Shown: positions 36,343-51,358 of the stretch, piece by piece | Layout of the letters: every line of letters begins with the position of its first letter | Numbering within the stretch: position 1 is the first letter of the stretch | Origin: Candidatus Promineifilaceae bacterium | GTDB lineage: Bacteria > Chloroflexota > Anaerolineae > Promineifilales > Promineifilaceae | Direction of reading: 5' to 3' | NCBI GenBank assembly: GCA_965223555.1 | Contig: CBDCWU010000009.1 | Coordinates: 375,619 to 439,618 of the forward strand | Length of the DNA: 64,000 nucleotides | Program-made: the position numbers and the translations under genes | Notes under the pieces: generated by a model | Seen by the model: the letters and a program-made list of their open reading frames with translations, nothing else | What the model was told of the DNA's origin: nothing | Database searches by the model: none

Positions 36343-37533
36343 ATGTATAAGAACAAAAGTAGTCAACAAGACAACAGCAGAGCAGCGGTGACCTCAACCC
36401 CCACGTTACTCAGCAAGCCCTTGAGCCAAAGCAAGATGCCTATAGCAGCCTTGCTTTTAGCTCTAGTTTTAGCCGCAACCAGCCTCTTCTCATTGGCCAG
36501 CCCGGCTCAAGCGGATAGCAATGAGATAGGCGAAGGCACTGTATTCACCTACATGGAGCAGGAGCCCGGTTTTCCTGAAGGCATTGTCGTTCACGGCAAT
36601 CGAGTTTTTGTCTCAACCCCCGCCCGCTTTGGCACAGCTGGAACTGGCCCATCCCAAATCTTTGTCTATGATCGACTAGATGGAAGCTTGGTGCAGACCA
36701 TCATCATTAGTGGTGAGGTTTTGAGCCAGGAACATGCCCTTAGCGGCCTAGCTATTGATGGTAACGGCCGTTTATACGCCATCAGCACCCAATTAGGCAT
36801 CATTCGCTTCACAAAAATGGGTCAAGCCTATGTCCAGGAACCCTGGGCTGACCCCATTCCTGATCTCAACCCCAACGATCCCATTCCACCCTTGCCCAAC
36901 GACATTGTTTTCGACGAAGCAGGCAACCTGTACCTGACTGATTCCTTGCAAGCCACCATTTGGCGCATTCCCACCACCGGTGGACAACCTCAAATCTGGT
37001 TCCAAGATCAAGCCTTGGCCATCACCGGACAAGCACAACTGGGGCCAAATGGCATCCGTCTTAGCCCCCAACGGGATTATGTCTACTTTGTTTACTCTGG
37101 CGGCCCCGCCCTCAATCCCTATGAACTGGCCCAACCCGGCCGCATTTACCGCCTGCCCTTGGTGGAGAATCCAACGGCCGTTCAATTGGAGACCGTCTTT
37201 ACCTATAGCGAGTTTGACCAGCCCGACGGCCTAGCCTTCGAACAGACGGGTCAGCTCTATGTGGTGTTAGCCGGAACCAATGCCATTTCCATCCTTGATA
37301 TAGATGCTCAAACAGGCCAAGCCACCGAGCAGCAGCGGCTCACTGGCCCCAGCAACAGCCCCCTGCCTTATGTCCAACCAGCCAATATTGCCTTTGACAG
37401 CCGCACCCATTCCCTGCTGGTGACGAATCACGCCATCTTTGCCCCGCTGCCACACAATTTATTTGCCGTCCTGCAAGTATTTGTAGATGCTGAAGGCGAT
37501 CCACTGGCAGAGCCGGACATGGATCAAGATTGA
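36343..37533 (+). CDS. Secreted beta-propeller protein (SMP-30/gluconolactonase/strictosidine-synthase-like)
   Basis: Signal peptide, then repeated blade-like motifs (NLYLTDSLQATIWRI, GQLYVV). Weak family assignment. Confidence 0.4.
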   Translation: MYKNKSSQQDNSRAAVTSTPTLLSKPLSQSKMPIAALLLALVLAATSLFSLASPAQADSNEIGEGTVFTYMEQEPGFPEGIVVHGNRVFVSTPARFGTAGTGPSQIFVYDRLDGSLVQTIIISGEVLSQEHALSGLAIDGNGRLYAISTQLGIIRFTKMGQAYVQEPWADPIPDLNPNDPIPPLPNDIVFDEAGNLYLTDSLQATIWRIPTTGGQPQIWFQDQALAITGQAQLGPNGIRLSPQRDYVYFVYSGGPALNPYELAQPGRIYRLPLVENPTAVQLETVFTYSEFDQPDGLAFEQTGQLYVVLAGTNAISILDIDAQTGQATEQQRLTGPSNSPLPYVQPANIAFDSRTHSLLVTNHAIFAPLPHNLFAVLQVFVDAEGDPLAEPDMDQD

Positions 37534-37660: not shown

Positions 37661-38521
37661 TTACCGTCTTCGTTTTTTCTTTTTGGCTTTGCGACGTGTT
37701 TTTAGTTTGATGATACGTTTCTTTTTAGGCGGTGGCGGGGGATCGGCCGTTTCCTCACCCATATCTCCAGCTAGCAACTGTTCTAATTTTGCCATAGTAG
37801 GATATTGCTCACCCAACCACCCCCGACGCGGCGCAGGTGTGATTCTTTCGCTGAGCAAACCCAATCTAATTTGTACCTCTTCCCAATCACCTAAAATAGA
37901 AACATCCACCTTGTTCGCTTTGAACGCCGCCGCCATCGTATCAGCCGCCTCAACGGCCTGTAAATCACACAACTCAGAAACAAGGCCACCATTAAGCGTG
38001 AGGGATTGTTTACGATGCTTGGCTAACTGGCGGGTCAAGAGTTCGACACACTCTTCTCGGTAAGCCGGGTATTGCCCACCGATTTTTTGAATGGCAGTTG
38101 CTGCCGCCCAACGACTAAAATCCCCATATTGCGGATTGACCAGATAGCCAGCTAGGTTAGGCAAAGTCTCTGGGCCAATCATAGCCAAGACATCCGGCAA
38201 GTCGCCATGTTCCCAATCGTGATTGAGGTCATCATCGTCAATACGAGTCAGAAGTTTGACCAACGGTTTAATGGCCACAACAGCTTGCAGTTGCCCTAAA
38301 GCCCGCCAAGCGTGGAGGTTGGCCCACACCTCATCTGAATCCTCATCCGCCCAATTAAGTTCCTCGTCTTGCATCATGCGTATGAGATCGGGAATGTGTG
38401 CCTCTGTTAGGCCACAGGTGGTTTTATAATCCAGCCACTCCTCCTGGCCGCGCACGTCGCCTAGCGTCAGCAGTTGGGCCATGGGCTGTCCATACGTTTG
38501 TGGCTTTGGCAAATCTGCCAT
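37661..38521 (-). CDS. Hypothetical protein with polyproline plus polybasic C-terminal tail (PPPPPKKKRIIKLKTRRKAKKKKRRR)
   Basis: 286-aa ORF co-oriented with the NACHT gene and immediately downstream of it. Confidence 0.5.
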   Translation of the reverse strand: MADLPKPQTYGQPMAQLLTLGDVRGQEEWLDYKTTCGLTEAHIPDLIRMMQDEELNWADEDSDEVWANLHAWRALGQLQAVVAIKPLVKLLTRIDDDDLNHDWEHGDLPDVLAMIGPETLPNLAGYLVNPQYGDFSRWAAATAIQKIGGQYPAYREECVELLTRQLAKHRKQSLTLNGGLVSELCDLQAVEAADTMAAAFKANKVDVSILGDWEEVQIRLGLLSERITPAPRRGWLGEQYPTMAKLEQLLAGDMGEETADPPPPPKKKRIIKLKTRRKAKKKKRRR

Positions 38522-38636: not shown

Positions 38637-40799
38637 TTACAGGTCGTTGATTAGTTTTTGGAATTCGGCTTCGTCGGCCAGGAATTCTAGGAGGGTGCGA
38701 TGGATGAACATCCAGCCGCCACCCACGCGGCGCAGCAATAGACGCGCCGCCATCCCATCCAAATAGGCAACCAACTTCCGATCCCGAAAAGGAAAGGGTA
38801 GCATCCCCTGCCGCGCCAACAACCAGCGCAACACATAATGCTTTATCACCGTTTCTCCCCCATATTGCATTGGCCCGATCATAAGCCCGATCATAAGCCC
38901 GACCACCAGCCCCAGCCCCAGCCCGAAAATCAGTTCACCAATGAGCGCAAAGATTAGTCCACCTCCCAATCCGAAAATTAGAGCAACAATTAGCCCATAC
39001 ACAGGACCTGTCCGCCGTGCATTATGCCATGATGTCCGAACACCTTGATTAGGTTGGGAACGTTGAAGCGTTCTATTTGTATGAATAAGAGATTCAAGTG
39101 CAGCTATTAGCCCGAAAATTAGCACACCGCCCAACCCGACAATCAGCCCAGCAATCAGCCCAGCAGTCAGCCCAGCAATCAGCCCGAAAATTAGCCCAGC
39201 ACCCAACCCAAAAATTAGCCCAGCGATCAATCCTTGTTTGATTTTTGACCGCAAAAGGGGAGAGTGAGGGCGTAGCCAACGGATTTCTTCAACTAACTGT
39301 ATAGGACCACTATCAGATACAAAAAACTGTTTAAGACTCTCGTCACGAATGCCTATACCACCTTTGAAACCGAGAAACAATCCTATTAACAGCCAAACAA
39401 CTAACCCTGCAATTAGCCCAAGAATTAGACCAACAACCAAGCTGGTAATCAGACTAAAAATTAATCCAATAACCAGACTAACAATCAGCCCAGCAATCAG
39501 CCCAGCAATCAGCCCGAAAAGCCAACGGTAGGAACGGGGATTGGGTGGCCAGCTTGGTTGTAGCTGCTCAATGTAAAAAACAGATTGGTTATGGGCTTGC
39601 AATTGGTGGGCAAGGTGGTACAACCAGGTTAAGGCGGCATGTTCATTATACGGGCCATCAGGGGGTAAGGGGCGGCGGTGCAAGTTGTGCTTGATGTAAG
39701 CGGTAAACAGTTGGTTCCGCTTGTCAGCCAAGCTCCCGCCTGCGGGCAAGGGCGTTTCACTAAAGGTGAAGGCCATGAGGTTAAGCATGAGGGGGGATTG
39801 GGCCAGTTCGCGCCACTCGTCGTCGGTGGCCACGGCTTGGCGCAGGCCGGCCAGGGGGGCGCTGAAGCTGGCTAGGTAGTCGTCTATCTGGCTGGGGGTC
39901 AGGGGCTGGAGGCGGATGGCGCTGCTGAGGTTGAGCTGTGCTTGCAGTTGCTCGTAATCGGCCAGGCGGCTGCACACCACCATGTCGGCGGGGTGGTCGG
40001 CTTTGAAGCTGTTGATGGCTGTCACACAAGCTTCGCGCTGTTCGGCAGCCACTTCATCCAGCCCATCCAGCAGCAGTGTTAACTGGTTGCCTGTCAGCCA
40101 GTCGCGGCTCAACTGGCGCGGGGCTTGGTACTGCACCAGCAATTCCTCCACTATCCAAGCAACCAAGTCCCCGCCTTCTCGCGCCCACGAGGAGAGATTA
40201 AGGACAATGGGAATGGGCTCATTGGGGTCGGCTTGGGCGGCGGTCAGCAACTCTTGCAAGAGTTGCAGCAGGGCAATGGTTTTGCCACTGGCTGGTTCGC
40301 CCAAAATCAGCAAGGCTCGTCCCCGCGCCGCGAATATTTGGGCCAAACTGGTGTCGGCTGGAATAGGCTGCTCCTCAGGGTAAAGGCTACGGTGGGGGCG
40401 GCTAAGGGCATCATGCTGGTAGCTCATGTCCAAGGCCAGGGCCACATCGTTGTGCAGGGCTGGCTCTAATATGCCCTCAATCCAGGTGTGGTGGATGTTG
40501 TTGAGGATGTTTTGGCGGTTGCGTTGTTGGGGGTGGCTGGGGGTGGCGGTGGTCAGGGCGGCAGCGAGTTCGGCGGCATTGGGCCACGTGAGTTTGTCAC
40601 GTTCCTCACGTAAAGCGGCAATTAGTTCATCTAATTGCTCGCGCCGCTGCACGTGAGTTAGCAGGGAACGAATTTTGCTGGATTTGCGAAAGCCATCCAA
40701 CTCGTCCCAATCCACACCTAAATCCATAGCCAAACCGCGTAGCTCTTCTTGGTCGAAGCTGCGGGCGATTTGTTGGTGGAGCTGTTTGGCTAGGTTCAT
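38637..40799 (-). CDS. NLR-like NACHT/STAND NTPase: N-terminal effector-associated (death-like) adaptor domain, NACHT core, and about 290-aa glycine-zipper TM repeat insertion before the C-terminal winged-helix motif
   Basis: Walker A LILGEPASGKT. Walker B LTLLLDGLDEV. Winged-helix motif RRVGGGWMFIHRTLLEFLA at the extreme C-terminus. Three blocks of (GLIxGLIx)n. The N-terminal ~60 aa are homologous to the N-terminus of the CHAT protein. Confidence 0.8.
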   Translation of the reverse strand: MNLAKQLHQQIARSFDQEELRGLAMDLGVDWDELDGFRKSSKIRSLLTHVQRREQLDELIAALREERDKLTWPNAAELAAALTTATPSHPQQRNRQNILNNIHHTWIEGILEPALHNDVALALDMSYQHDALSRPHRSLYPEEQPIPADTSLAQIFAARGRALLILGEPASGKTIALLQLLQELLTAAQADPNEPIPIVLNLSSWAREGGDLVAWIVEELLVQYQAPRQLSRDWLTGNQLTLLLDGLDEVAAEQREACVTAINSFKADHPADMVVCSRLADYEQLQAQLNLSSAIRLQPLTPSQIDDYLASFSAPLAGLRQAVATDDEWRELAQSPLMLNLMAFTFSETPLPAGGSLADKRNQLFTAYIKHNLHRRPLPPDGPYNEHAALTWLYHLAHQLQAHNQSVFYIEQLQPSWPPNPRSYRWLFGLIAGLIAGLIVSLVIGLIFSLITSLVVGLILGLIAGLVVWLLIGLFLGFKGGIGIRDESLKQFFVSDSGPIQLVEEIRWLRPHSPLLRSKIKQGLIAGLIFGLGAGLIFGLIAGLTAGLIAGLIVGLGGVLIFGLIAALESLIHTNRTLQRSQPNQGVRTSWHNARRTGPVYGLIVALIFGLGGGLIFALIGELIFGLGLGLVVGLMIGLMIGPMQYGGETVIKHYVLRWLLARQGMLPFPFRDRKLVAYLDGMAARLLLRRVGGGWMFIHRTLLEFLADEAEFQKLINDL
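38850..39530 (-). repeat. Three arrays of 12-nt tandem codon repeats (GCTGGGCTGATT-like, encoding A-G-L-I) inside the NACHT gene
   Basis: Direct tandem DNA repeats, e.g. aatcagcccagc x4 and gatcataagccc x2. In-frame, hence copy-number variable without frameshift. Confidence 0.7.
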
Positions 40800-40974
40800 G
40801 GTTGGTTTAGATAATAGTCAGCTTGCAGGAGATTGTACAGAGGAAGAAAAGGGATTACAACATCTGCACTCAAACAATTTGTTGCTTGACAACTCTCCTG
40901 GCAGGATCGTATCATCTGCTCACGATATTGTTCTCCGGTTAGATAAATATTTACTATCCATTCGCAAACAAAAC

Positions 40975-42261
40975 ATGACATCCGCGAATGGGCTTCAAGT
41001 AGCCGCTCGGTTGGGAACGTGTGCAGTTCATTATGAAATGAACGGCTACTTGGCAATCAGTGAGCAGTCCATGACAGCAAGCATCCCATTTCAACTTGAT
41101 AAACCGGGGAGTGGAGCCACGATTGTCTATCGCCCTTGGGGAATTTCTACGCTGAAAGTGCAAATAAGCACCCAAACAGATCTACCTCCTTTACGTCTAC
41201 GGCCGCAAAATGTGCACCCTGAAGAGGCAGCCAATGGGCTCTTTCGGGCCTTTGCTGATGATAGTGACGCCTTCATTATCAGCTGGGGTGGTGGCAATGA
41301 GCCGGGGCCATGCAGCCAAGCCGAAGATTTTCTGATGGCCTTTGAAAAGTGCGTGGACTTAAATCCGGGCGAAGGCAGCACTGTCTTTTTTAATGTGCAG
41401 CATGTGGGGCCAGATGTGCCGGAAACAAGCCTCATTACGTTGCAAGCCTATGATGAAGAGAGCGGGGATGTCGTAGCCGTGCTGCCTATTCAGATGGAAC
41501 AAACGGCGGCTTATCGGGCGGATGCGGTGCAATTTGTTGAGGCGGAGCCAGGGATTTGGCGACCATCAGGCAGCAGCTTGCCCACGTATGATCCGCGCTG
41601 GTGGCCGCGCTCAGTGGACTATGTGCCAGCCGATGAGTTGCCGCTAACAATTCAGTGGGGGAATAATGAGCTATTTGTGTTATGGCAGGATCATGTAGCT
41701 GCAACGGTAAGGGATCATACGCAGCCGACGATTTTGGATTTAGGCGACATTTCGTATGAACTATTTTACTTTGATGAGTGGCATGTGGCTTTACGAATCT
41801 GGTTTTTTTGGCTGGACAAGAATGTTGGCACGGATTTTTTTGTAGGGCGACATGAGGTGCCCGATGCCGAACGCTTTGATATGTTGATCCGACGCCAAGA
41901 CGGCGCCACGACGCTGGCTTGCACGGATTTGCATTGGCGGGAGACGTGGGGGCGGGTGAAAAAAGGCGAGCCGCTAGAGGCAACGCTGGGGCTGAGTACG
42001 GATACAAAGATTAAGCTGGCCAAGGAGGCTTTGGGCAAGGTGTGGCAGGTGTGGCAGCGGGATGAGAAGGTGGATCATAAACGGCCGTATGACCCTCTCA
42101 CCTATATCCAACGCATGGCCGCCACTCTGGGGGCAGAAGCTGTAGGCACGGTTCGGGCCAAAGGCACCGAAGCCCATTTGCCCGCTTTGCAAAATGTGGA
42201 AACAACTGACCAACCAGGCCGGCCGCCACGCATGACAAGTAGTGATGTGAGATTAGGATAG
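40975..42261 (+). CDS. Hypothetical protein (428 aa) divergent from NACHT gene and immediately upstream of CHAT gene
   Basis: No recognisable motif. The track ORF begins at 40675 but that would overlap the NACHT start; the first ATG after the NACHT gene is 40975. Confidence 0.5.
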   Translation: MTSANGLQVAARLGTCAVHYEMNGYLAISEQSMTASIPFQLDKPGSGATIVYRPWGISTLKVQISTQTDLPPLRLRPQNVHPEEAANGLFRAFADDSDAFIISWGGGNEPGPCSQAEDFLMAFEKCVDLNPGEGSTVFFNVQHVGPDVPETSLITLQAYDEESGDVVAVLPIQMEQTAAYRADAVQFVEAEPGIWRPSGSSLPTYDPRWWPRSVDYVPADELPLTIQWGNNELFVLWQDHVAATVRDHTQPTILDLGDISYELFYFDEWHVALRIWFFWLDKNVGTDFFVGRHEVPDAERFDMLIRRQDGATTLACTDLHWRETWGRVKKGEPLEATLGLSTDTKIKLAKEALGKVWQVWQRDEKVDHKRPYDPLTYIQRMAATLGAEAVGTVRAKGTEAHLPALQNVETTDQPGRPPRMTSSDVRLG

Positions 42262-42358
42262 CATATCAGTAAATGGGGGATTGAGTGATAATTGGGTAAT
42301 TATCGAATTAGTCGCTCCAAGTCGAATATCATCAGTACAAACCGCAGGAGATAATTAA

Positions 42359-44086
42359 ATGAACAGAAGGGATCTCGTTAAGTTAATAGCCCGTGATTTT
42401 GCGGATCAAGAGGAGTTTACCGATCTGCTCTTTGAGCTTGATTTAGAATACGGCAACATAAAAGGCAGCACGATTTCGGCCAAGTCACGTGAATTAGTGA
42501 CTTACAAGGAACGCCGTGGTGAAGTGGAAGAGTTATTAACAGCAATCGTCGCGATGCGACCAAATTTACAGGAACAGTTGGAAGCATATGATGGTGTGCG
42601 GCCTGGCATGGATATTGGCAAGAACAAAGGTCAAGGCTCATCCAGGCGGGGAGGGCAATCTCATCCAGGAATGGGTGATGATACGACTGATGAGCAGCAA
42701 GGTTTAGCATACGAGAATTTTGATATACGGATTCTGACGGCGGATTCAGATGGCAGTTATCGCATTCAAGTAAATCGTAATCCCGAAAATATGGAGATGT
42801 ACGATGATGTACGGCAGAAGTTTCCCCTGGATGATTATGATTTTGTTGATTTGGTAGATTACTTGTCTGATTTGATTGCCCAAGGGAATGATGCCAAACA
42901 GTTGGGGAAAATGATGCGCGACTTGCTCTTTCCGGGGCGTATTGGCGAGATATTTTTTGCCAATATGGGCAGTATGCGGCGGCAGGGGAAGGGGTTGCGC
43001 ATTCGTTTGCGCATTGATGCGCCGGAATTGAGCAAACTACCTTGGGAATATTGTTATGGCGGGGATGAGTTTGGCTTTTTTGCTCTGGACCCGCGTACGC
43101 CGCTGGTGCGCTATATTGCACGGCCGTTTGAGACTTCAACACTAGCTGTACCCAACCCCATGAAAGTGCTGCTGGCGATTGCGGCACCCTCAGACCAAGC
43201 ACCTTTGAGTGTGGATGAGGAAGAGCGGCGGGTGCGCAGTTGGCTCAGCGTGATGGGGGATCGGGTACAGTTGCGAGTAGTGCGCAATGCCACCCCGCAG
43301 CGTCTACAGGCAGCCTTGACGGATTCACCCCACATTTTCCACTTTATTGGGCATGGTGAATTTGTAGATGGGATGGGCAAATTGGTGCTGGAGGATAATT
43401 TTGGTAAATCTGAATATCGTGATTCGGAGCAGTTGAAGGTGATGCTGCGTGGGCGTGATGTGAAGGTAGTGATTCTGAATGCTTGTAAGTCGGCGGCGGG
43501 CAATGCCCACGCCGCTTTTGCGGGGGTGGCTCCAGCCTTGGTGCAGGCAGATGTGCCGGCGGTGATTGCCATGCAGTTTAATGTGCCGGACAAGACAGCC
43601 TTGGGCTTTACGCAGGATTTGTATCGCTATTTGATGGCGGGTTATCCTCTGGATCAGGCGGTGACGGAGATGCGGGCGGGGGCGTTTAATAATGCCAATG
43701 ATAAGTATTTCTGGGGTATCCCGGCCTTGTATATGCGCTCACCAGACGGCCGTTTGTGGGAGCCTGAGGCTGAATTATTGGCTAAGTTTGAGGAGGCGCG
43801 GGAAACGGCCGTTGACCAAGCTGGTGCCACGATTCCTGAGTTATTGCAGCAAATTAAAGATGAGGTGCAGAGCGCGGGTGATGTTGATGATCGAGATCGA
43901 GAGTACATTCTGCGCGGTTTAGATGATGGTTTGAGAGCGGCCAATGAAGGAGACGGCCGAGATGTGGCCTATTATCTTAACCGTGTTATTGATGATCTGA
44001 AGCGTTCTCGTTCGGATACGGCCGAGAAAGAGATTGTGCCGAAGGTGGAATTTGTGATACAGCGGGCAGAGAACGAGATGGGTTAA
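42359..44086 (+). CDS. CHAT-domain caspase-like peptidase with N-terminal effector-associated adaptor domain
   Basis: Catalytic His (IFHFIGHGEF) and Cys (VVILNACKSAAG) of the caspase-haemoglobinase fold, preceded by the LPWEYCYG helical region. N-terminal 65 aa align with the NACHT N-terminus (IAR.F.DQEE...L..L...G...K.R.L.T...RR...EL). Confidence 0.85.
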   Translation: MNRRDLVKLIARDFADQEEFTDLLFELDLEYGNIKGSTISAKSRELVTYKERRGEVEELLTAIVAMRPNLQEQLEAYDGVRPGMDIGKNKGQGSSRRGGQSHPGMGDDTTDEQQGLAYENFDIRILTADSDGSYRIQVNRNPENMEMYDDVRQKFPLDDYDFVDLVDYLSDLIAQGNDAKQLGKMMRDLLFPGRIGEIFFANMGSMRRQGKGLRIRLRIDAPELSKLPWEYCYGGDEFGFFALDPRTPLVRYIARPFETSTLAVPNPMKVLLAIAAPSDQAPLSVDEEERRVRSWLSVMGDRVQLRVVRNATPQRLQAALTDSPHIFHFIGHGEFVDGMGKLVLEDNFGKSEYRDSEQLKVMLRGRDVKVVILNACKSAAGNAHAAFAGVAPALVQADVPAVIAMQFNVPDKTALGFTQDLYRYLMAGYPLDQAVTEMRAGAFNNANDKYFWGIPALYMRSPDGRLWEPEAELLAKFEEARETAVDQAGATIPELLQQIKDEVQSAGDVDDRDREYILRGLDDGLRAANEGDGRDVAYYLNRVIDDLKRSRSDTAEKEIVPKVEFVIQRAENEMG

Positions 44087-44238: not shown

Positions 44239-44275
44239 CCGGATTACGGTTTACCGATTACTGATTACGGAACAT
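44239..44275. repeat. Copy of ccggattacggtt.accgatta repeat element between CHAT and nuclease genes
   Basis: cggattacggtttaccgattactgattacgg compared with 18395-18425. Confidence 0.4.
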
Positions 44276-45074
44276 GCCAGATACGCTCACCCTTAGTCGC
44301 ACGAAGTTTTCTGCTTTTTTGGCTTGCCAGCGGCGCTTTGAATTGCGCTATTTGCGGCAATTGTCCTGGCCAGATGTGCCTTTGTCGGAGCAGTCGGCCT
44401 TGGTGCAGAAACGGGGGCAACAGTTTCATCAGTTGTTGGAAAGACATTTCCTAGGGCTGTCAATAGAGTTGAATGGCATTAGCGACAGTGTGGTGCGCCG
44501 ATGGTGGCTGGCATTTCAGGGCAGTAATCCAGTCTCCAGTCTCCAATCTCCAGCCTCTAGCTGGCAACGATTACCAGAACTGTCGCTCACTATTCCGGTG
44601 GGAGGTTATTTGCTGAACGGCCGTTTCGACCTCCTCGTTATAGCTGACCAACAAGCCCACATCTTTGACTGGAAAACGGGCAAACCCCAACCGGAGCGGC
44701 GTTTGCGCCATGATTGGCAAACACGCCTTTATTTGGCAATGGTAGCCGAGAGCAGCACGGCATTGGGGGCAGATTTTGCGCCGGAGCAGATTACCCTCAC
44801 CTACTGGTATGTGTCCGAACCAGATGCGCCGCGCACAATCCAGTATGATGCGGCCTGGCATAGGCAAAATTGGGCCGAGATTGAGCAGTTGGTGACACAA
44901 ATTGAGGTCGCCACAGCTGAGGGGATGTGGCCGTTAACGGATGATTGGGAGCAATGCCGTCCGTGTGCCTATCGGGCCCATTGTGGGCGACAAGAGGTTG
45001 AAACGGCCGAATCCGCTCCCGATGAAGATGCAGAAGAAGTTGTGAGTTTGCAATTGGAACCAAATATCCCATAA
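44274..45074 (+). CDS. PD-(D/E)XK nuclease with Cas4/AddB-like Fe-S cysteine cluster
   Basis: Motifs GRFDLLV ... IFDWKTGK (D ... D/ExK). One N-terminal Cys plus C-terminal C-X2-C-X5-C (CRPCAYRAHC). Confidence 0.6.
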   Translation: MPDTLTLSRTKFSAFLACQRRFELRYLRQLSWPDVPLSEQSALVQKRGQQFHQLLERHFLGLSIELNGISDSVVRRWWLAFQGSNPVSSLQSPASSWQRLPELSLTIPVGGYLLNGRFDLLVIADQQAHIFDWKTGKPQPERRLRHDWQTRLYLAMVAESSTALGADFAPEQITLTYWYVSEPDAPRTIQYDAAWHRQNWAEIEQLVTQIEVATAEGMWPLTDDWEQCRPCAYRAHCGRQEVETAESAPDEDAEEVVSLQLEPNIP

Positions 45075-45147: not shown

Positions 45148-46320
45148 ATGACTTTAGATGAGTTTTATTTTTTGTTGACGGCTGAAGGGCAGCAGCTTTT
45201 GGGCCAGGTTCCCTTAATTACGCCGGAAACGCATTTGGCAACGGCGGTCCAGTTACGACGCCAGGTGGGCCAGGGGTTGGCGCAGGCAGTACTGGAAACA
45301 GCCTTATTGCGGCAGGAAGCGGCCGTTAAGTTTAGCCGAGCGTCTGATATGTACTTCAGTCGGGAAGCTTTGGAACAATCCTCATCGGAGGTGGTAGCTA
45401 GGTATCGGGCAGAGCGTTTTTTTCGGGCTGGGATTGAGCGCGTGGCAGATTTGGGCTGCGGCATTGGCGGTGACTCGTTGGCATTGGCGGCAGGGATGGA
45501 AGTGATGGGGGTGGAGTGGCAGCCAGTACGGTTGGCCATGGCCCAAGAGAATGTGCGGGTGTATGGTCATGGGGCTAATTTTCGGCCGTTGCAGGCAGAT
45601 TTACTGGAATTAACGCCGCTGCCTGTGCAGGCCGCTTTTTTTGATCCAGCGCGGCGGGATGAAAACGGCCGTCGTCTCACTTCTGTTCATCAATATCGGC
45701 CCCCACTTAGTTTGATTGACAAGTGGCGGGTGTGGATTGGGGAAACGGCCGTGAAAATCAGCCCCGGCGTGGCCTATGACGAATTGCCAGAAGATGCTGA
45801 GATAGAGTTCATTTCTGTAAATGGTGATGTAAAAGAAGGCGTATTGTGGTTTGGCGATTTGCGCTCCGGTGTTAGGCGACGGGCGACATTATTGCCCTCA
45901 GGTGAGACGTTGACAGACAGGGAGATGCCGATGACACCCATTGCTGTGACTAAACCACAGGCCTACCTGTATGAGCCAGACAAGGCGGTAATTCGGGCAC
46001 ATCTGGTGCAAGCATTGGCACAGCAGTTGGGGGCAACTAAACTGGATGAGGAGATCGCCTATTTAACGGCCGATTCAGTCCAACCAACTCCTTTTGCTCG
46101 CTGTTTTGTCATTGAGGATTGGTTTCCCTTCCAACTTAAACGGCTGCGGCACTATTTACGGGAGCGTGATATAGGACGTGTGGTCATCAAAAAGCGCGGT
46201 TCGCCCTTGCAGCCAGAAACATTGCAACGCCAATTACGCTTACAAGGCGATAATGAATGTATTATCTTTTTGACACATGTGGGGGGAGAAGCGGCCGTTT
46301 TAATTGGGCAACGCCCTTAG
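45148..46320 (+). CDS. Class I SAM-dependent methyltransferase (putative RNA methyltransferase with N-terminal extension)
   Basis: Motif I VADLGCGIGGDSLALA. 390 aa. Confidence 0.5.
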   Translation: MTLDEFYFLLTAEGQQLLGQVPLITPETHLATAVQLRRQVGQGLAQAVLETALLRQEAAVKFSRASDMYFSREALEQSSSEVVARYRAERFFRAGIERVADLGCGIGGDSLALAAGMEVMGVEWQPVRLAMAQENVRVYGHGANFRPLQADLLELTPLPVQAAFFDPARRDENGRRLTSVHQYRPPLSLIDKWRVWIGETAVKISPGVAYDELPEDAEIEFISVNGDVKEGVLWFGDLRSGVRRRATLLPSGETLTDREMPMTPIAVTKPQAYLYEPDKAVIRAHLVQALAQQLGATKLDEEIAYLTADSVQPTPFARCFVIEDWFPFQLKRLRHYLRERDIGRVVIKKRGSPLQPETLQRQLRLQGDNECIIFLTHVGGEAAVLIGQRP

Positions 46321-48535: not shown

Positions 48536-48919
48536 TTAATCCACAAAAGTAAGGCTCAAATCCTGCAAATTAATAACCGCACCAGCTTGGCGCAAAAAAT
48601 CCATTCCCAGAATGCCATTAATTTCAAATCCATAATCCATCCCACCCACCTCAATTTCCAAATTTGGCACTTGCTGTTTACCGATTTGGACGTAATCTAC
48701 ACGCCTTGTGAAAACAACTTCTGTGCCACCTACACCGCGAATGGTGTGTAATGTGTCATTGGGTTCAGGGGTGATGTGAACGGCCGTTAACCGATCCGCC
48801 GCCAAAATTGTCGTCGCCGAACCCGTATCAATCAACACATTATCAACCGTGGCTGTTATACCACGGTAAGCAATCGTAATCTGGCTAAAAGGTAAATTAT
48901 CAACCAACCTGAGCTTCAT
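48536..48919 (-). CDS. Retropepsin-like (clan AA) aspartic peptidase domain protein
   Basis: DTGS active-site motif (LIDTGSATTILA). 127 aa. Confidence 0.55.
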   Translation of the reverse strand: MKLRLVDNLPFSQITIAYRGITATVDNVLIDTGSATTILAADRLTAVHITPEPNDTLHTIRGVGGTEVVFTRRVDYVQIGKQQVPNLEIEVGGMDYGFEINGILGMDFLRQAGAVINLQDLSLTFVD

Positions 48920-49178
48920 GGCTTCTGCGAACTCCTAACCAGTAGCGCACCTCAATATCCAGTTCTTCCCGACTTGTATGCACAAAATAAAACTCCCGAT
49001 CAGGATACTGCTGGTGCCAACGACGATAGCTCTGCATAGCACTGCCACCATCATCACATTGCTCAATCACCGCCAATCGCACTACTTCTCGATGGTTATC
49101 AGGCCGTGTATATGCTTCCAATGCTTCCACCACCAACCACTGTTCAGGATAAACCTGTCGTATTTCAGTCCAAATCAT
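48900..49178 (-). CDS. Hypothetical small protein co-transcribed with the aspartic peptidase gene
   Basis: ORF with probable start at MIWTEIRQ..., overlapping the peptidase gene by 20 nt. Confidence 0.35.
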   Translation of the reverse strand: MIWTEIRQVYPEQWLVVEALEAYTRPDNHREVVRLAVIEQCDDGGSAMQSYRRWHQQYPDREFYFVHTSREELDIEVRYWLGVRRSHEAQVG

Positions 49179-49184
49179 AGTCAG

Positions 49185-49290
49185 CCTCCACACTATCCAC
49201 CACCATACAGCCACAAAACATCTTCGAGTCCGTCATCAACTCCGTACACATCTCTAATCCAATCACTGCTTCATGATTCGTCATCCACAT
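49185..49290 (-). pseudogene. Diverged duplicate of the gatB 5' end (first ~35 codons, ~90% nt identity to 48432-48532)
   Basis: Encodes [34 protein letters not shown], compared with [34 protein letters not shown] for genuine GatB. Homology ends at gcctccacac on both copies. Confidence 0.8.
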
Positions 49291-50597
49291 CTTTCCAAAA
49301 TAAGAATATGTTCTTCTACATTCATCTTCGTTACTGTAGACAAGCGCGTACGCCACAACAAGGTTTCCACTTCTCGATAGTTCAATTTTTGGCAAGCAAT
49401 TAAGCTGAGAAGTTTAGCTGTATAAATTGGCACACGAAAATAACTCATCTGATCGCCAACAACAAAAGCCAATTGAGCCCCGACAGACGTAACTTGTTGC
49501 AATTGTTCCAAAACTCGAAACATGCCACCAAAATATTCTGTGACTACTCGATGATACAGGCGTTCAAAGCCAGATGTCGCTCCCCGTTCAATTCGTTTCC
49601 GTTCAATCTCCTGAGACAGTTTCTGAATTTCTGGCATATCGGCTACGTATTGGGCATCATCATCAGCAACATACACATTACGTGTATGAGAACGCAACAT
49701 CTCCTTTTTGATGGTACGTAAATCCCCTTTACTTTGCATAAAATCTAGCAAAAGCAATTCTAATCGTGTGATGCGCGAATAATCTTTCTCATTAGGGTAT
49801 GGGGGTGAGCAGATGATGAAATCTATGTTCGTATCCATAAACGCTGTCAACTTTCGTGCATCCCCTAAATAAACAATTGATTCGCCAAGCTGTTCAATCT
49901 GCTGCACTTTCACCAAATCAATCCGCATTCGGCGCAATTTATCTACAAATAAATTATAAACATCTGCATCTTTGCGCTTTTTAGACACATACACTTCTGG
50001 CCCAAACCCTAAATTAGAAGCCGCTACAAATACGTTGGCTAAAGCCAGTTGAAACAACTCTGTTAAACTATCCTCCGGTTCGTCAATTAGCAATTGTTTG
50101 ATGATTAAACATTTCTGCAAAGGGTTAGGGCTAATCCAGTTCTTGGGTAATAAGCCCCGGATAATTTCCCCATCCACTTCCATTTCTGTCTCAGCAAGCA
50201 AGCCGCCAGGTGGCAATAAATCATCGAAGGAAAGTTGTGTTGCATATTGTTTGCCCACTGCATGAATTGGTTGCCAGATTCTCTGGCATAGAGATTGAAA
50301 TCGATTATCAAATTCTGTTAAATCAATGTCCCAATTTGTTTTCACCCGACTAGCAAAAGCGGTGACTGGATTCGCATCAATGCCGATAGAATTGATCCCT
50401 CGTCGCTTACATTCCACCAAAGTTGTTCCTGTTCCCACAAATGGGTCTAGCACTACATGATTGTGCCCAATCCCAAATTTTTCGATGAGACCAGATACGA
50501 GATGATCGGGATAAGACAAAACGAAACGATACCAATCATGAATAGTTGTATCGTCTAATTGTTGCGCCGTGTGATTCGGCCGTTGTAAATCACTCAT
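49281..50597 (-). CDS. DNA methyltransferase, N6-adenine/N4-cytosine type (SPPY motif IV, alpha-class order)
   Basis: Motif I DPFVGTGTT near the N-terminus. Motif IV FIICSPPYPNE about 200 aa downstream. Confidence 0.75.
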   Translation of the reverse strand: MSDLQRPNHTAQQLDDTTIHDWYRFVLSYPDHLVSGLIEKFGIGHNHVVLDPFVGTGTTLVECKRRGINSIGIDANPVTAFASRVKTNWDIDLTEFDNRFQSLCQRIWQPIHAVGKQYATQLSFDDLLPPGGLLAETEMEVDGEIIRGLLPKNWISPNPLQKCLIIKQLLIDEPEDSLTELFQLALANVFVAASNLGFGPEVYVSKKRKDADVYNLFVDKLRRMRIDLVKVQQIEQLGESIVYLGDARKLTAFMDTNIDFIICSPPYPNEKDYSRITRLELLLLDFMQSKGDLRTIKKEMLRSHTRNVYVADDDAQYVADMPEIQKLSQEIERKRIERGATSGFERLYHRVVTEYFGGMFRVLEQLQQVTSVGAQLAFVVGDQMSYFRVPIYTAKLLSLIACQKLNYREVETLLWRTRLSTVTKMNVEEHILILERCG

Positions 50598-50725
50598 AGT
50601 TCTCGCACCAATAAGTACCGTTTATACCGTTTCGTAGCAATTTGGTCGGGATCAGTAACTGCCGTAAACTCTAAAAACAAATACGAGCCATCCGGCATTA
50701 GTTTGACCCCAATCGGTCGTATCAC

Positions 50726-51358
50726 CTAATCAGGGAACTGTGCCGCTGCAAACCGAATCATCTGCGTTACTTGAATGACCCCCAATTGGTCTTTAACCGA
50801 GTCAATTTTCGCCTCAATCGGTAAAATAAAACCTACTCCATCACTATCCAAACCAATATATAAATCATCAATTTCAATCTGACCTGTATTGGCAACCGTC
50901 GTGCGAAAATGTCCTTGCAGATGGTAAGTCGTCAACGACGTGAAAATATCTACCAAACGATTGTATCGAATACGAGCTAATGCTGCTTGTTCATCGGAAC
51001 TCTGATAGTTCAGAACAATTTGTGGCGTGGCATCAGGAATCGTTGTGACTTCAATGTCAGATGGCATATCAAAATAAGGAGAACGAGATAACTTACGAAA
51101 AGCATATTTGCTCTTTCCCATCCCCTCAATCGCCCAAGATCCATGCTGCAAAATAAATTTCGGCAAAGCAGATCTGCCAGAGCGATACGTATAAACAATA
51201 TCCGGTACATTTTTCGTCGAAAGCTGTAATCCCAGTTGCTGAATAGCTTGTTCAATATCTGCTTTCGTGAAAGGCAAGGTGTCAGCACCTTCTGCAAAAA
51301 CACTTTCAAAAACACGAATAATAACTTGATCGTAAACTTTCAAACCTTCTGTTTCCAA
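50726..51358 (-). CDS. Putative Type II restriction endonuclease (PD-ExK-like) partnered with the methyltransferase
   Basis: 210-aa protein with GLDSDGVGFILPIEAKI (D ... ExK) adjacent and co-oriented with the MTase. Assignment by context. Confidence 0.4.
   Translation of the reverse strand: METEGLKVYDQVIIRVFESVFAEGADTLPFTKADIEQAIQQLGLQLSTKNVPDIVYTYRSGRSALPKFILQHGSWAIEGMGKSKYAFRKLSRSPYFDMPSDIEVTTIPDATPQIVLNYQSSDEQAALARIRYNRLVDIFTSLTTYHLQGHFRTTVANTGQIEIDDLYIGLDSDGVGFILPIEAKIDSVKDQLGVIQVTQMIRFAAAQFPD

What the first reader, a model, noticed from the sequence alone, without database searches (positions are those of the whole stretch)
38637..44086. NACHT NTPase and CHAT caspase-like protease share a homologous N-terminal adaptor domain: candidate NLR-type conflict or defence system
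The N-terminal ~60 residues of the minus-strand NACHT protein (LHQQIARSFDQEELRGLAMDLGVDWDELDGFRKSSKIRSLLTHVQRREQLDELIAAL) and of the plus-strand CHAT protein (LVKLIARDFADQEEFTDLLFELDLEYGNIKGSTISAKSRELVTYKERRGEVEELLTAI) align position by position. Shared pattern: IAR.F.DQEE, L..L, G...K.R.L.T...RR...EL..A. Apart from this module the two proteins are unrelated, one a STAND NTPase and the other a caspase-fold peptidase with catalytic His and Cys intact. This is the organisation predicted for effector-associated (death-like) domains in bacterial NTP-dependent conflict systems. In that model a homotypic adaptor on the sensor NTPase recruits and activates a protease effector, as in eukaryotic apoptosomes and inflammasomes. 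The genes are divergently transcribed with an unknown 428-aa gene between them, and the unit is bounded by terminators. I am not aware of a described defence system with exactly this composition (NACHT with internal TM array plus EAD-CHAT plus Cas4-like nuclease).
Basis: partly seen in the sequence, partly recalled or inferred. Interest (0 to 1): 0.9.

Follow-up and report, generated by a model that had tools for sequence, protein, structure and literature searches.

The report
EAD7 adaptor links NACHT and CHAT
A membrane-embedded NLR-like ATPase and a caspase-like protease in a Chloroflexota genome carry the same small docking domain, already named EAD7, so this is a further example of a predicted bacterial "inflammasome-like" pairing rather than a new kind of system.

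Summary
Both N-termini are full-length matches to Pfam EAD7 (PF19960), at 69 and 47 bits against a threshold of 32, and they align to each other at E=5e-11. EAD7 was defined by Kaur et al. (2020, 2021) as a homotypic adaptor coupling NTPase cores to effectors. Kibby et al. already list bacterial NACHTs with EAD adaptors and with TM regions inserted into the NACHT module.

The proposed system boundaries are wrong. NACHT–CHAT adjacency exists only here and in a 91%-identical relative. The PD-(D/E)XK ("Cas4-like") nuclease and its methyltransferase form an independent conserved pair that also occurs without CHAT.

The protease's faithful partner is the unknown 396-aa β-sandwich protein I call MID. 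It is always directly upstream of CHAT, co-diverges with it (rho 0.92), and is fused to clostripain-type (C11, caspase-fold) peptidases elsewhere.

The NACHT–CHAT functional link is supported independently. Direct CHAT–NACHT fusions exist, the EAD7 module has been swapped on the protease, and in another genome a MoxR–vWA–multi-EAD7 STAND system occupies the same slot.

Verdict: new member of a known, computationally predicted kind, of moderate interest. The physical coupling is untested.

The parts
38637..40799 (-). EAD7-NACHT-TM protein, 720 aa: NLR-like STAND NTPase, the predicted sensor/switch
   Evidence: Pfam EAD7 and NACHT. AF2 model pLDDT 88.8. Foldseek hits to NOD2/NLRC4/NLRP3, E 7e-8 to 1e-4. 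Walker A and B intact.
40599..40781 (-). EAD7 adaptor domain of the NACHT protein (aa 7-67)
   Evidence: PF19960, 69.4 bits, profile positions 1-61 of 62. Modelled as helices 2-14, 17-26, 39-52 and 56-66. The database record P0241 starts at Met25 and would truncate this domain.
39870..40316 (-). NACHT P-loop core (aa 162-310) with Walker A K173 and Walker B D245/D248/E249
   Evidence: PF05729, 26.7 bits, exactly at the gathering threshold. Motifs found and invariant in alignment A4.
38811..39539 (-). Array of six TM helices (three hairpins, aa 421-663) inserted in the winged-helix domain, built from a (G/S)-L-(I/V)-x periodicity
   Evidence: Hydropathy blocks. AF2 helices 421-451/454-482, 513-542/544-571 and 585-618/623-663, followed by the wing hairpin 689-698, GGGWMFIH. 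119 of 120 homologues have at least two such blocks. 12-nt DNA tandem repeats underlie the array.
40800..41070 (.). Divergent intergenic region between the NACHT and MID genes
   Evidence: Best promoter-like site on + at 40886-40915 (11 of 12 matches); promoter-like sites on - at 40860-40832 and 40839-40811. Sequence read. These are consensus matches only.
41071..42261 (+). MID: 396-aa all-beta protein of unknown family, the conserved upstream partner of CHAT
42359..44086 (+). EAD7-CHAT protein, 575 aa: caspase-fold (clan CD) protease, the predicted effector
   Evidence: Pfam CHAT 96.4 bits and EAD7 46.7 bits. The top-ranked homologues (roughly the first 66 of 120 listed) mostly carry EAD7+CHAT.
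42374..42562 (+). EAD7 adaptor domain of the CHAT protein (aa 6-68)
   Evidence: PF19960, profile positions 1-62 of 62. The module was exchanged independently of the protease core: relatives with 75-92% core identity share 33-42% in EAD7, while relatives with 58-60% core identity share 81-88%.
42989..43714 (+). CHAT catalytic domain (aa 211-452) with His332 (HFIGHG; codon 43352-43354) and Cys376 (NACK; codon 43484-43486)
   Evidence: Pfam coordinates. Motifs. H332 and C376 invariant in alignment A1.
44274..45074 (+). PD-(D/E)XK nuclease with a C-terminal Cys cluster: a syntenic neighbour, probably not a dedicated component
   Evidence: PDDEXK_1, 99.5 bits. Cas_Cas4 18.8 bits is below its 22.7 threshold, and TIGR00372 29 bits is below 65. 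The pair with the methyltransferase occurs without CHAT, MID or EAD7 upstream in 12 loci that have at least 2.4 kb of upstream sequence.
45148..46320 (+). THUMP-like SAM methyltransferase: conserved partner of the nuclease gene, not part of the NACHT/CHAT unit
   Evidence: Pfam Thump_like and Methyltransf_15/25. 60-92% identical across loci, and tracks the nuclease at rho 0.83.

Best explanation
The locus juxtaposes a sensor and an effector cassette that are predicted to communicate through a shared adaptor. The sensor is a membrane-embedded NLR-like STAND NTPase, EAD7-NACHT, with six TM helices inserted in its winged-helix domain and almost no extracytoplasmic loops. The effector cassette is MID plus EAD7-CHAT.

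Proposed sequence of events:
1. An intramembrane or membrane-proximal cue, or a cue acting on the cytoplasmic NACHT module, releases autoinhibition.
2. NTP-dependent oligomerisation of the NACHT clusters its N-terminal EAD7 domains.
3. These recruit the EAD7 of the CHAT protease by homotypic contacts.
4. Induced proximity activates the caspase-fold protease.
5. The protease cleaves its targets, causing growth arrest or death of the cell.

MID, the invariant upstream partner of CHAT, most likely binds the protease directly, as a regulator, a pro-domain-like inhibitor, a substrate receptor or a substrate.

Shown here: the homology and integrity of all domains, the architecture, the fusions and the neighbourhood statistics. 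Inferred: every physical interaction, the trigger, the substrate and the biological role.

The MID/EAD7-CHAT cassette is resident and vertically inherited. The EAD7-bearing NTPase next to it is interchangeable, so the protease looks like a shared effector for several sensors, much as caspase-1 serves several inflammasome receptors.
For: Both adaptors are bona fide EAD7 and align to each other at E=5e-11. EAD7 is published as an effector-recruiting homotypic adaptor. Rosetta-stone evidence: in L009 the CHAT orthologue next to MID lacks EAD7 and is fused directly to a NACHT. P0321, P0300, P0317 and P0341 are CHAT-NACHT-TM fusions within the same NACHT-TM family. That family carries TIR, kinase, HTH or CHAT at the position where this protein has EAD7. 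In L092 the slot upstream of MID holds a MoxR-vWA system whose STAND protein carries 4-5 EAD7 domains, followed by a two-EAD7 mini-protein. The EAD7 module on CHAT has been swapped independently of the protease core. Catalytic and NTP-binding residues are intact and conserved. A second EAD7-NACHT paralogue lies about 190 kb away on the contig of the closest relative. NACHT-TM relatives occur on IMG/VR contigs and this CHAT clade does not. The MID-protease link rests on 14 of 14 adjacency, rho 0.92, and fusion to Peptidase_C11. Experimental precedent for adaptor-dependent protease activation in bacteria comes from CARD-like domains in gasdermin systems.
Against: Adjacency of EAD7-NACHT and EAD7-CHAT is seen only in the window and in L001. 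L002 (77% identical CHAT) and at least 20 other loci have no EAD7-NTPase within 8-10 kb. The NACHT EAD7 is no closer to its neighbour's EAD7 (37%) than to other CHAT EAD7 types (33-43%), so there is no pair-specific co-evolution. The CHAT block is vertically inherited among housekeeping genes (GroEL, CysRS, GatB), which is unusual for a defence island. No PADLOC system matches. No EAD interaction has been shown experimentally for EAD7. The TM array could itself be the effector.
Confidence: 0.6

Rival explanations
1. MID/EAD7-CHAT is a lineage-conserved regulatory or developmental protease module of filamentous Chloroflexota, comparable in spirit to HetF in cyanobacteria. Its EAD7 docks to housekeeping partners. 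The neighbouring NACHT gene is a recent, functionally unrelated insertion that happens to carry a common local adaptor.
For: The MID-CHAT-nuclease-methyltransferase-response-regulator order is kept across Promineifilaceae, Ardenticatenaceae and other Anaerolineae MAGs, and identities co-vary (rho 0.8-0.9), which indicates vertical descent. The flanks are housekeeping genes. The best NCBIfam hit of the CHAT protein is HetF. EAD7-only genes persist in the same slot where the protease has been lost (L048, L062, L074, L077).
Against: The HetF hit scores 88 bits against a cut-off of 1200. EAD7 module swapping and copy-number variation from 1 to 4 resemble conflict-type diversification. The same CHAT clade is fused directly to NACHT in L009. 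A MoxR-vWA-EAD7 conflict-type system occupies the same slot in L092. Other genes are inserted beside CHAT: a reverse transcriptase in L006 and a pentapeptide-repeat protein in L005.
Confidence: 0.2
2. The NACHT protein acts mainly through its own glycine-zipper-like TM array, for example by membrane permeabilisation on oligomerisation, or through other EAD7 proteins encoded elsewhere in the genome. The adjacent CHAT is served by different EAD7 sensors.
For: EAD7-NACHT-TM genes commonly stand alone in unrelated neighbourhoods (L036, L037). The periplasmic turns are only 2-4 residues long, so there is no obvious sensor domain. The TM array is conserved family-wide regardless of the N-terminal domain. 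Genomes carry several EAD7 proteins.
Against: Relatives with enzymatic N-terminal effectors (TIR, CHAT, kinase) keep the same TM array, which suggests the array is the constant sensing or anchoring part and the N-terminus is the output. Kibby et al. interpret TM regions as sensors. The direct CHAT-NACHT-TM fusions show that CHAT is a legitimate output of this NACHT family.
Confidence: 0.12
3. This is a caspase-nuclease ('canu'-like) module, in which CHAT proteolytically activates the downstream PD-(D/E)XK nuclease as a pro-enzyme.
For: CHAT and the nuclease gene abut or overlap in many loci (L034 and L035 share a boundary base; L003 has a 4-nt gap). There is experimental precedent for protease-activated nucleases and caspase-nuclease loci.
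Against: The canu nucleases are MBL-fold, not PD-(D/E)XK. The nuclease-methyltransferase pair occurs without CHAT, MID or EAD7 in 12 loci. Unrelated genes are inserted between CHAT and the nuclease in L005, L006, L039 and L040. In the window the two genes are 188 bp apart with a hairpin between them.
Confidence: 0.05

Closest known systems
EAD-coupled NTP-dependent conflict systems (Kaur, Burroughs, Iyer, Aravind; eLife 2020 PMC7159879 and 2021 PMC8195603), specifically EAD7 / Pfam PF19960
   Same: The same adaptor family on both proteins. One copy sits on a core NTPase and one on an enzymatic effector encoded next door. In other proteins the effector is fused directly to the core. EAD7 is listed among the effector-recruiting EADs and as an N-terminal domain of STAND (NACHT) proteins. 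The phylum context is also Chloroflexi.
   Different: The published descriptions centre on MoxR-vWA ternary systems and STAND-FGS proteins. I did not find this particular pair (EAD7-NACHT with a TM insertion plus EAD7-CHAT), the MID partner, or the fixed chromosomal position of the protease cassette in the text or held supplements I could search. All of their claims are computational.
Bacterial NACHT (bNACHT) proteins, Kibby et al. (bioRxiv 10.1101/2022.07.19.500537)
   Same: [quoted passage not shown]
   Different: The anti-phage bNACHTs tested experimentally there are single-gene proteins from proteobacteria. As far as I read, no EAD-type or TM-inserted member was tested. NCBIfam and PADLOC hits to named antiphage NACHTs are negligible.
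CARD-like domain systems with an NLR-like ATPase, protease and gasdermin or other effector (Wein et al., PMC10312443); also the CARD-NLR-like system controlling gene transfer agents (PMC13236601)
   Same: An NLR-like STAND ATPase, a protease with a small N-terminal helical adaptor that is essential for activation, and a neighbouring protein that is the protease's substrate.
   Different: There the protease is trypsin-like, the adaptor has a six-helix Death fold, the substrate is a gasdermin or a phospholipase/nuclease, and the system is an operon found in defence islands. Here the protease is CHAT, the adaptor is EAD7 (about four helices, with no significant PDB death-fold hit), MID is an Ig-like beta protein, and the sensor gene is not stably linked.
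Canu caspase-nuclease loci (Tuck et al., Science 2025, PMC12799240)
   Same: A caspase-family protease with an accessory protein (CanB) that forms a complex with it; the loci contain Ig-like folds; a nuclease gene lies downstream.
   Different: The canu nuclease is an MBL-fold gated pro-enzyme, whereas here it is a PD-(D/E)XK nuclease that exists independently of the protease. No homology between MID and CanB was tested.
Animal apoptosome/inflammasome (Apaf-1 or NLRC4 CARD with caspase CARD)
   Same: The logic is the same: a STAND NTPase oligomer displays an adaptor that recruits a caspase-fold protease bearing the same adaptor. The NACHT model superposes on NOD2/NLRC4/NLRP3.
   Different: EAD7's relationship to the Death fold is marginal: published HHpred p is about 1e-3 to Pyrin/DED, and nothing significant was found here. 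The sensor is membrane-embedded rather than LRR- or WD40-based.
Other CHAT effectors: type III-E Craspase (Csx29) and SAVED-CHAT of CBASS-like systems (from my own knowledge)
   Same: CHAT proteases used as switchable effectors of immune sensors. There is a weak PADLOC SAVED_CHAT hit to the catalytic region only.
   Different: There is no SAVED, TPR or CRISPR context here: no CRISPR array and no cas genes were found in the window.

Membership tests
Pfam EAD7 (PF19960) | Sequence match to the family model above the gathering threshold (32 bits) over the whole model | tested here: met
   NACHT 69.4 bits, profile positions 1-61 of 62; CHAT 46.7 bits, positions 1-62 of 62.
Pfam EAD7 (PF19960) | Small, non-enzymatic, all-alpha domain at a protein terminus | tested here: met
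   AF2 model of the NACHT protein: helices 2-14, 17-26, 39-52 and 56-66, pLDDT 84-97. The domain is N-terminal in both proteins.
EAD-coupled conflict system (Kaur et al.) | Same EAD on a core NTPase and on an effector encoded by an adjacent gene or elsewhere in the same genome | tested here: met
   Met in the window and L001. In MAG GCA_020634415.1 the NACHT orthologue and the MID locus lie on different contigs.
EAD-coupled conflict system (Kaur et al.) | The same effector domain is fused directly to the core component in other proteins | tested here: met
   CHAT-NACHT fusions L009, P0321, P0300, P0317 and P0341.
EAD-coupled conflict system (Kaur et al.) | [quoted passage not shown] | tested here: not met
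   The window pair is 37% identical, against 33-43% for the NACHT EAD7 versus other CHAT EAD7 types. In an alignment-based ranking the neighbour came 9th of 76.
EAD-coupled conflict system (Kaur et al.) | Homotypic physical interaction of the EADs | not testable with these tools
   No multimer prediction or experiment was available.
NACHT clade of STAND NTPases | P-loop core with Walker A and Walker B, and a match to the NACHT model | tested here: met
   PF05729 scores 26.7 bits, exactly at the threshold. GEPASGKT and LLLDGLDE are present and conserved. Foldseek hits to NOD2/NLRC4/NLRP3, E 7e-8 to 1e-4.
NACHT clade of STAND NTPases | C-terminal repeat sensor (LRR, TPR, WD40) | tested here: not met
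   No repeats are present. Instead there is a six-helix TM array inserted in the winged-helix domain, a category recognised for bacterial NACHTs.
CHAT / clan CD caspase-fold peptidase | CHAT model match with an intact His-Cys dyad | tested here: met
   PF12770, 96.4 bits. His332 and Cys376 invariant in 11 homologues.
Death-like superfamily (CARD, PYD, DED, Death) | Detectable relationship to solved death-fold domains; six-helix bundle | tested here: inconclusive
   An EAD7 profile searched against PDB sequences gave no death-fold hit; the best match was the PheRS-beta B1 domain, E=1.2e-3. Published HHpred p-values are marginal: bDLD1 2e-4, Pyrin 9e-4, DED 1e-3. The domain fold could not be searched in isolation.
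Cas4 | Score above the Cas4 model thresholds, and a CRISPR-cas context | tested here: not met
   Cas_Cas4 18.8 bits is below 22.7, and TIGR00372 29 bits is below 65. No CRISPR-like array was found, and no cas genes among the ORFs surveyed.
Canu caspase-nuclease system | MBL-fold gated pro-nuclease genetically dependent on a caspase-family gene | tested here: not met
   The nuclease here is PD-(D/E)XK, and it occurs with its methyltransferase but without CHAT in 12 loci.
Known anti-phage systems in PADLOC-DB v2 | Significant full-length hits to the component models of a defined system | tested here: not met
   Only partial, weak hits: PDC-S60 E=3.6e-4, SAVED_CHAT catalytic region, and generic Cas4/DruK nuclease folds.
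CARD-NLR-protease gasdermin-type systems | Trypsin-like protease with a CARD fold, plus a gasdermin or other lytic effector as substrate | tested here: not met
   The protease is CHAT. MID shows only generic Ig-like structural matches and no gasdermin.

The most novel reading that the evidence does not exclude
MID is a previously unrecognised dedicated partner of caspase-fold (clan CD) proteases, acting as a regulator, a pro-domain-like inhibitor or a substrate. On this reading MID/EAD7-CHAT is a vertically inherited 'common effector hub' of Ardenticatenales-like Chloroflexota, into which interchangeable and partly mobile EAD7-bearing sensors plug. Those sensors are the membrane NACHT here and MoxR-vWA-multi-EAD7 STAND in L092. 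This would be a bacterial counterpart of one caspase serving many inflammasome receptors, with EAD7-only proteins acting as ASC-like bridges or decoys.
Probability: 0.3. Interest if true: 0.65.

Novelty: new member of a known kind. Interest (0 to 1): 0.36.

Why it matters
The EAD principle is the proposed bacterial analogue of CARD- and PYD-mediated caspase recruitment. For EAD7 it still rests on comparative genomics alone. This locus offers a compact test case of two or three genes: a sensor with intact Walker motifs, a protease with an intact dyad, and one conserved accessory protein. It also adds two leads not found in the papers I could search. First, a small (about 150 clusters) Chloroflexota-restricted protein family, MID, is tied to caspase-fold proteases by both adjacency and fusion. 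Second, the protease cassette appears resident while its EAD7-bearing sensors are swapped in and out. If confirmed, this would show how bacteria wire several sensors to one protease. If not, the pair is simply two neighbours sharing a common local domain.

Tried and rejected
- Single-sequence scan of reference genomes with the CHAT protein found nothing; the alignment-based scan worked.
- Exact look-ups of the window's own NACHT and CHAT records were not on record, so the source organism could not be named. The nearest named relatives are Ardenticatenaceae and Promineifilaceae MAGs.
- The afdb50 fold library was unavailable.
- I looked for pair-specific similarity between the two neighbouring EAD7 domains and found none.
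- I considered the Cas4-like nuclease and the methyltransferase as system components and rejected this. The pair is independent of CHAT, fails the Cas4 cut-offs, and the PADLOC 'mad2' hit covers only the SAM-binding motif.
- I considered a canu-like caspase-nuclease reading and rejected it as unlikely.
- I considered HetF membership and rejected it: 88 bits against a cut-off of 1200.
- The DUF1186/HEAT gene next to the NACHT is absent beside NACHT orthologues elsewhere, so it was not included.
- Terminator and promoter scans are not above shuffle expectation.
- The more distant CHAT-NTPase fusions (L090, L091) lack MID.
- The EAD7 profile did not detect death-fold structures.
- In one search, three CHAT cluster members were mislabelled as NACHT-borne. 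The class means from that call are therefore approximate, and the conclusions rest.

Full report
OBSERVATION. Their first ~100 residues align at 32% identity over 92 columns, with a composition-adjusted BLASTP E-value of 5e-11. Each N-terminus also matches the whole 62-position Pfam model PF19960, 'Effector-associated domain 7' (EAD7). The NACHT protein scores 69.4 bits and the CHAT protein 46.7 bits, against a gathering threshold of 32. The similarity is therefore real homology, not composition.

The remaining parts are as described. The NACHT has a P-loop core (PF05729, exactly at threshold) with Walker A GEPASGKT and Walker B LLLDGLDE, both conserved in 51 homologues. Its AlphaFold model (pLDDT 88.8) superposes on NOD2, NLRC4 and NLRP3. 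The CHAT domain scores 96.4 bits, and His332 and Cys376 are invariant.

The 'internal TM array' is confirmed. Three long helical hairpins (aa 421-482, 513-571 and 585-663, six TM helices in all) sit between the winged-helix helices and the wing hairpin GGGWMFIH at 689-698. Their turns are only 2-4 residues long.

Two details need correction. The middle gene is more likely 396 aa, starting at ATG 41071, as in its homologues. The 'terminators' are not more frequent than in shuffled sequence.

WHAT IS ALREADY KNOWN. EAD7 is one of the effector-associated domains defined by Kaur, Burroughs, Iyer and Aravind. These are small non-enzymatic domains found once on a core NTPase and again on an effector encoded next door or elsewhere in the genome. 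They are proposed to couple the two by homotypic contacts, explicitly by analogy with CARD and Death domains, and EAD7 is listed among the effector-recruiting EADs. The 2021 paper lists EAD7 as an N-terminal domain of STAND (NACHT) proteins. It counts 27 EAD7 architectures, mostly in Chloroflexi, and reports only marginal profile-profile links to bDLD1, Pyrin and DED.

NEIGHBOURHOODS. I compared about 90 related loci from MAGs and metagenomes, using phmmer and custom HMMs on six-frame ORFs. Four results stand out.

(i) The EAD7-NACHT gene is adjacent to EAD7-CHAT only in the window and in L001, whose CHAT is 91% identical. L002 (77% identical CHAT) has a VanW gene there instead. L003, L007 and L021 have an ABC-transporter ATPase. 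EAD7-NACHT-TM genes also stand alone elsewhere. L036 holds the 67% orthologue, beside toxin-antitoxin genes and a transposase. L037 holds a 40% paralogue about 190 kb from the CHAT locus on the same contig as L001.

(ii) The conserved block is MID-CHAT-PD-(D/E)XK-methyltransferase, with a response regulator on the opposite strand. It occurs across Promineifilaceae, Ardenticatenaceae and other Anaerolineae-labelled MAGs. Percent identities co-vary across loci: MID with CHAT rho 0.92, CHAT with methyltransferase 0.81, nuclease with methyltransferase 0.83. This indicates vertical inheritance, with MID and CHAT evolving faster than their neighbours.

(iii) The nuclease-methyltransferase pair occurs without CHAT, MID or EAD7 upstream in 12 loci that have at least 2.4 kb of upstream sequence. 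Unrelated genes are inserted between CHAT and the nuclease in L005 (pentapeptide-repeat protein), L006 (reverse transcriptase) and L039/L040. The nuclease fails both Cas4 thresholds, and the window has no CRISPR array. It is a neighbour, not a component.

(iv) MID is immediately upstream of CHAT on the same strand in all 13 loci where it was found, plus the window. It is missing upstream of CHAT in L034, L046 and L049.

EVIDENCE FOR A NACHT-CHAT FUNCTIONAL LINK. Adjacency is rare, but three independent observations support coupling.

First, there are fusions. In L009 the CHAT orthologue next to MID has no EAD7 and is fused directly to a NACHT module, confirmed by Pfam. Within the NACHT-TM family itself, P0321, P0300, P0317 and P0341 carry CHAT at the N-terminus. 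Other members carry TIR, kinase, HTH or DUF4062 at the position where this protein has EAD7. This is the 'effector or adaptor at the same position' pattern that defines EADs.

Second, in L092 the slot directly upstream of MID holds a MoxR-like AAA, a vWA (CoxE) protein, a 1200-aa STAND protein with four or five tandem EAD7 domains and an SH3 domain, and a 151-aa two-EAD7 protein. L092 comes from the same MAG as the 67% NACHT orthologue. So the position next to the protease cassette is occupied in different genomes by different EAD7-bearing NTPase systems.

Third, the EAD7 on CHAT behaves as an exchangeable module. Relatives sharing 75-92% identity in the protease core share only 33-42% in EAD7, whereas relatives at 58-60% core identity share 81-88% in EAD7. 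Copy number ranges from one to four, and EAD7-only remnants persist in the same slot.

One observation runs against a dedicated pair. The NACHT EAD7 is about equally similar (33-43%) to all CHAT EAD7 types, including its neighbour at 37%. NACHT-TM relatives, without EAD7, occur on a few IMG/VR contigs, whereas this CHAT clade does not. That fits a mobile sensor and a resident effector.

An exhaustive profile search of 1.84 billion representatives found only 150 members. Three of the long ones (P0412, P0414, P0451; at least one from Chloroflexota) are full-length MID fused to a Peptidase_C11 clostripain domain, E around 1e-46 to 1e-48. By established classification (MEROPS, my own knowledge), C11 belongs to clan CD, the caspase fold, as does CHAT. 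MID is therefore tied to caspase-fold proteases by both adjacency and fusion, and most likely acts directly on or with the protease. The CanB partner of the CanA caspase, and the Ig-like domains of paracaspases, are loose precedents.

MECHANISM. Best-supported model, confidence about 0.6. A membrane-embedded NLR-like NTPase oligomerises on a membrane-proximal or intramembrane cue. Its clustered EAD7 domains recruit EAD7-CHAT. Induced proximity activates the protease, and MID modulates it or is cleaved by it. The outcome is growth arrest or cell death. Domain identities, integrity of the catalytic residues, the fusions and the neighbourhood statistics are shown here. All interactions, the trigger, the substrate and the role in defence are inferred from the published EAD hypothesis and from experimentally studied CARD-like systems.

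Three rivals remain. The protease cassette could be a housekeeping or developmental module with an unrelated NACHT insertion beside it (0.2). The NACHT could act through its own TM array or through other EAD7 partners (0.12). CHAT could activate the neighbouring nuclease in a canu-like manner (0.05).

CONTEXT AND VERDICT. The window is ordinary chromosome: GroEL, CysRS, GatB, transporters and two-component proteins, with no tRNA and no CRISPR. No PADLOC system matches. The finding is a correct and well-reasoned rediscovery of EAD7 coupling, so I file it as a new member of a known, computationally predicted kind. The claimed new three-part system does not hold. The leads I did not find in the papers I could search are the MID family's link to caspase-fold proteases, and the picture of a resident protease cassette served by interchangeable EAD7 sensors.

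Noticed in passing
window 38869-39527 (-), inside the NACHT gene: The TM-coding region is built from 12-nt tandem DNA repeats (units such as CAATCAGCCCAG; short runs are 100% identical) that encode the (G/S)-L-(I/V)-x tetrapeptide periodicity. This suggests recent slippage-type expansion or contraction of the TM helices. Homologue lengths vary widely (about 660-990 aa among full-length EAD7-NACHT homologues).
   Followed up: partly
P0412, P0414, P0451: The unknown MID domain is fused at full length to Peptidase_C11 (clostripain) domains in Chloroflexota proteins. Other members carry DUF4332 (P0426, P0436) or a 275-aa N-terminal extension (P0391).
   Followed up: partly
L092:1-9192 (GCA_020634415.1, contig JACKBT010000020): Directly upstream of MID lie a CHAT+iSTAND protein, two AAA/MoxR-like genes, a vWA (CoxE) gene, a 1200-aa STAND protein with 4-5 tandem EAD7 domains plus SH3, and a 151-aa two-EAD7 protein. 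This is a Kaur-type ternary system acting as an EAD7 hub.
   Followed up: partly
L048:1106-1423, L074:1975-2292, L062:61-1110, L077:3-900: EAD7-only genes sit directly upstream of the PD-(D/E)XK gene where CHAT normally is: a standalone ~75-aa EAD7, and proteins with two or three EAD7 domains. L062 keeps a C-terminal tail resembling that of the CHAT protein. They may be adaptors or decoys left after loss of the protease domain.
   Followed up: no
L006:11052-13370 and L005:4982-6361: A 773-aa reverse-transcriptase (RVT_1) protein in L006, and a TM plus pentapeptide-repeat protein in L005, are inserted between CHAT and the nuclease gene. The junction appears to tolerate insertion of accessory, possibly defence-type, genes.
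   Followed up: no
window 48536-51358 (-): This is a variable islet between gatB and an aminotransferase gene. Here it holds a retropepsin-like aspartyl protease (48536-48919), a 104-aa ORF, an N6/N4 DNA methylase (49281-50597) and a 210-aa ORF. The 91% relative L001 has a DUF5615/DUF433 pair at the same place.
   Followed up: no
window 53498-55345 (-): A Ser/Thr kinase fused to an FGE-sulfatase (FGS) domain, an architecture that Kaur et al. treat as a conflict-system sensor or effector type. It is conserved in L001.
   Followed up: no
window 40728-40799 (-); record P0241: The public record of this NACHT protein (100% identical, 696 aa) starts at Met25, which would cut off the first helix and a half of EAD7. 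The EAD7 match begins at residue 7, and the L001 orthologue is called at 722 aa, so ATG 40799 is the likely start.
   Followed up: yes
window 37661-38521 (-): A DUF1186/HEAT-like protein with a strongly basic C-terminal tail (PPPPPKKKRIIKLKTRRKAKKKKRRR) lies 115 bp downstream of the NACHT gene on the same strand, with no terminator-like site between them. It is also adjacent in L001 but absent beside NACHT orthologues in L036 and L037.
   Followed up: partly
window 36343-37533 (+): An SGL/NHL beta-propeller gene with an N-terminal signal-like segment is present here but absent from the otherwise syntenic L001, so it is a recent indel next to the NACHT region.
   Followed up: no
L093-L095 (IMG/VR contigs): NACHT-TM relatives lacking EAD7 (some with N-terminal TM segments) are encoded on predicted viral contigs. 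In L095 the gene lies between large ORFs that look like phage structural genes; I judged this from the sequences only and did not test it.
   Followed up: no
EAD7 profile A5 against PDB; L092 STAND protein: The only near-significant PDB sequence hit of an EAD7 profile is the N-terminal B1 domain of phenylalanyl-tRNA synthetase beta (E=1.2e-3). Pfam PhetRS_B1 also hits one EAD7 repeat in L092. This is unexplained and may be chance or a shared helical motif.
   Followed up: no
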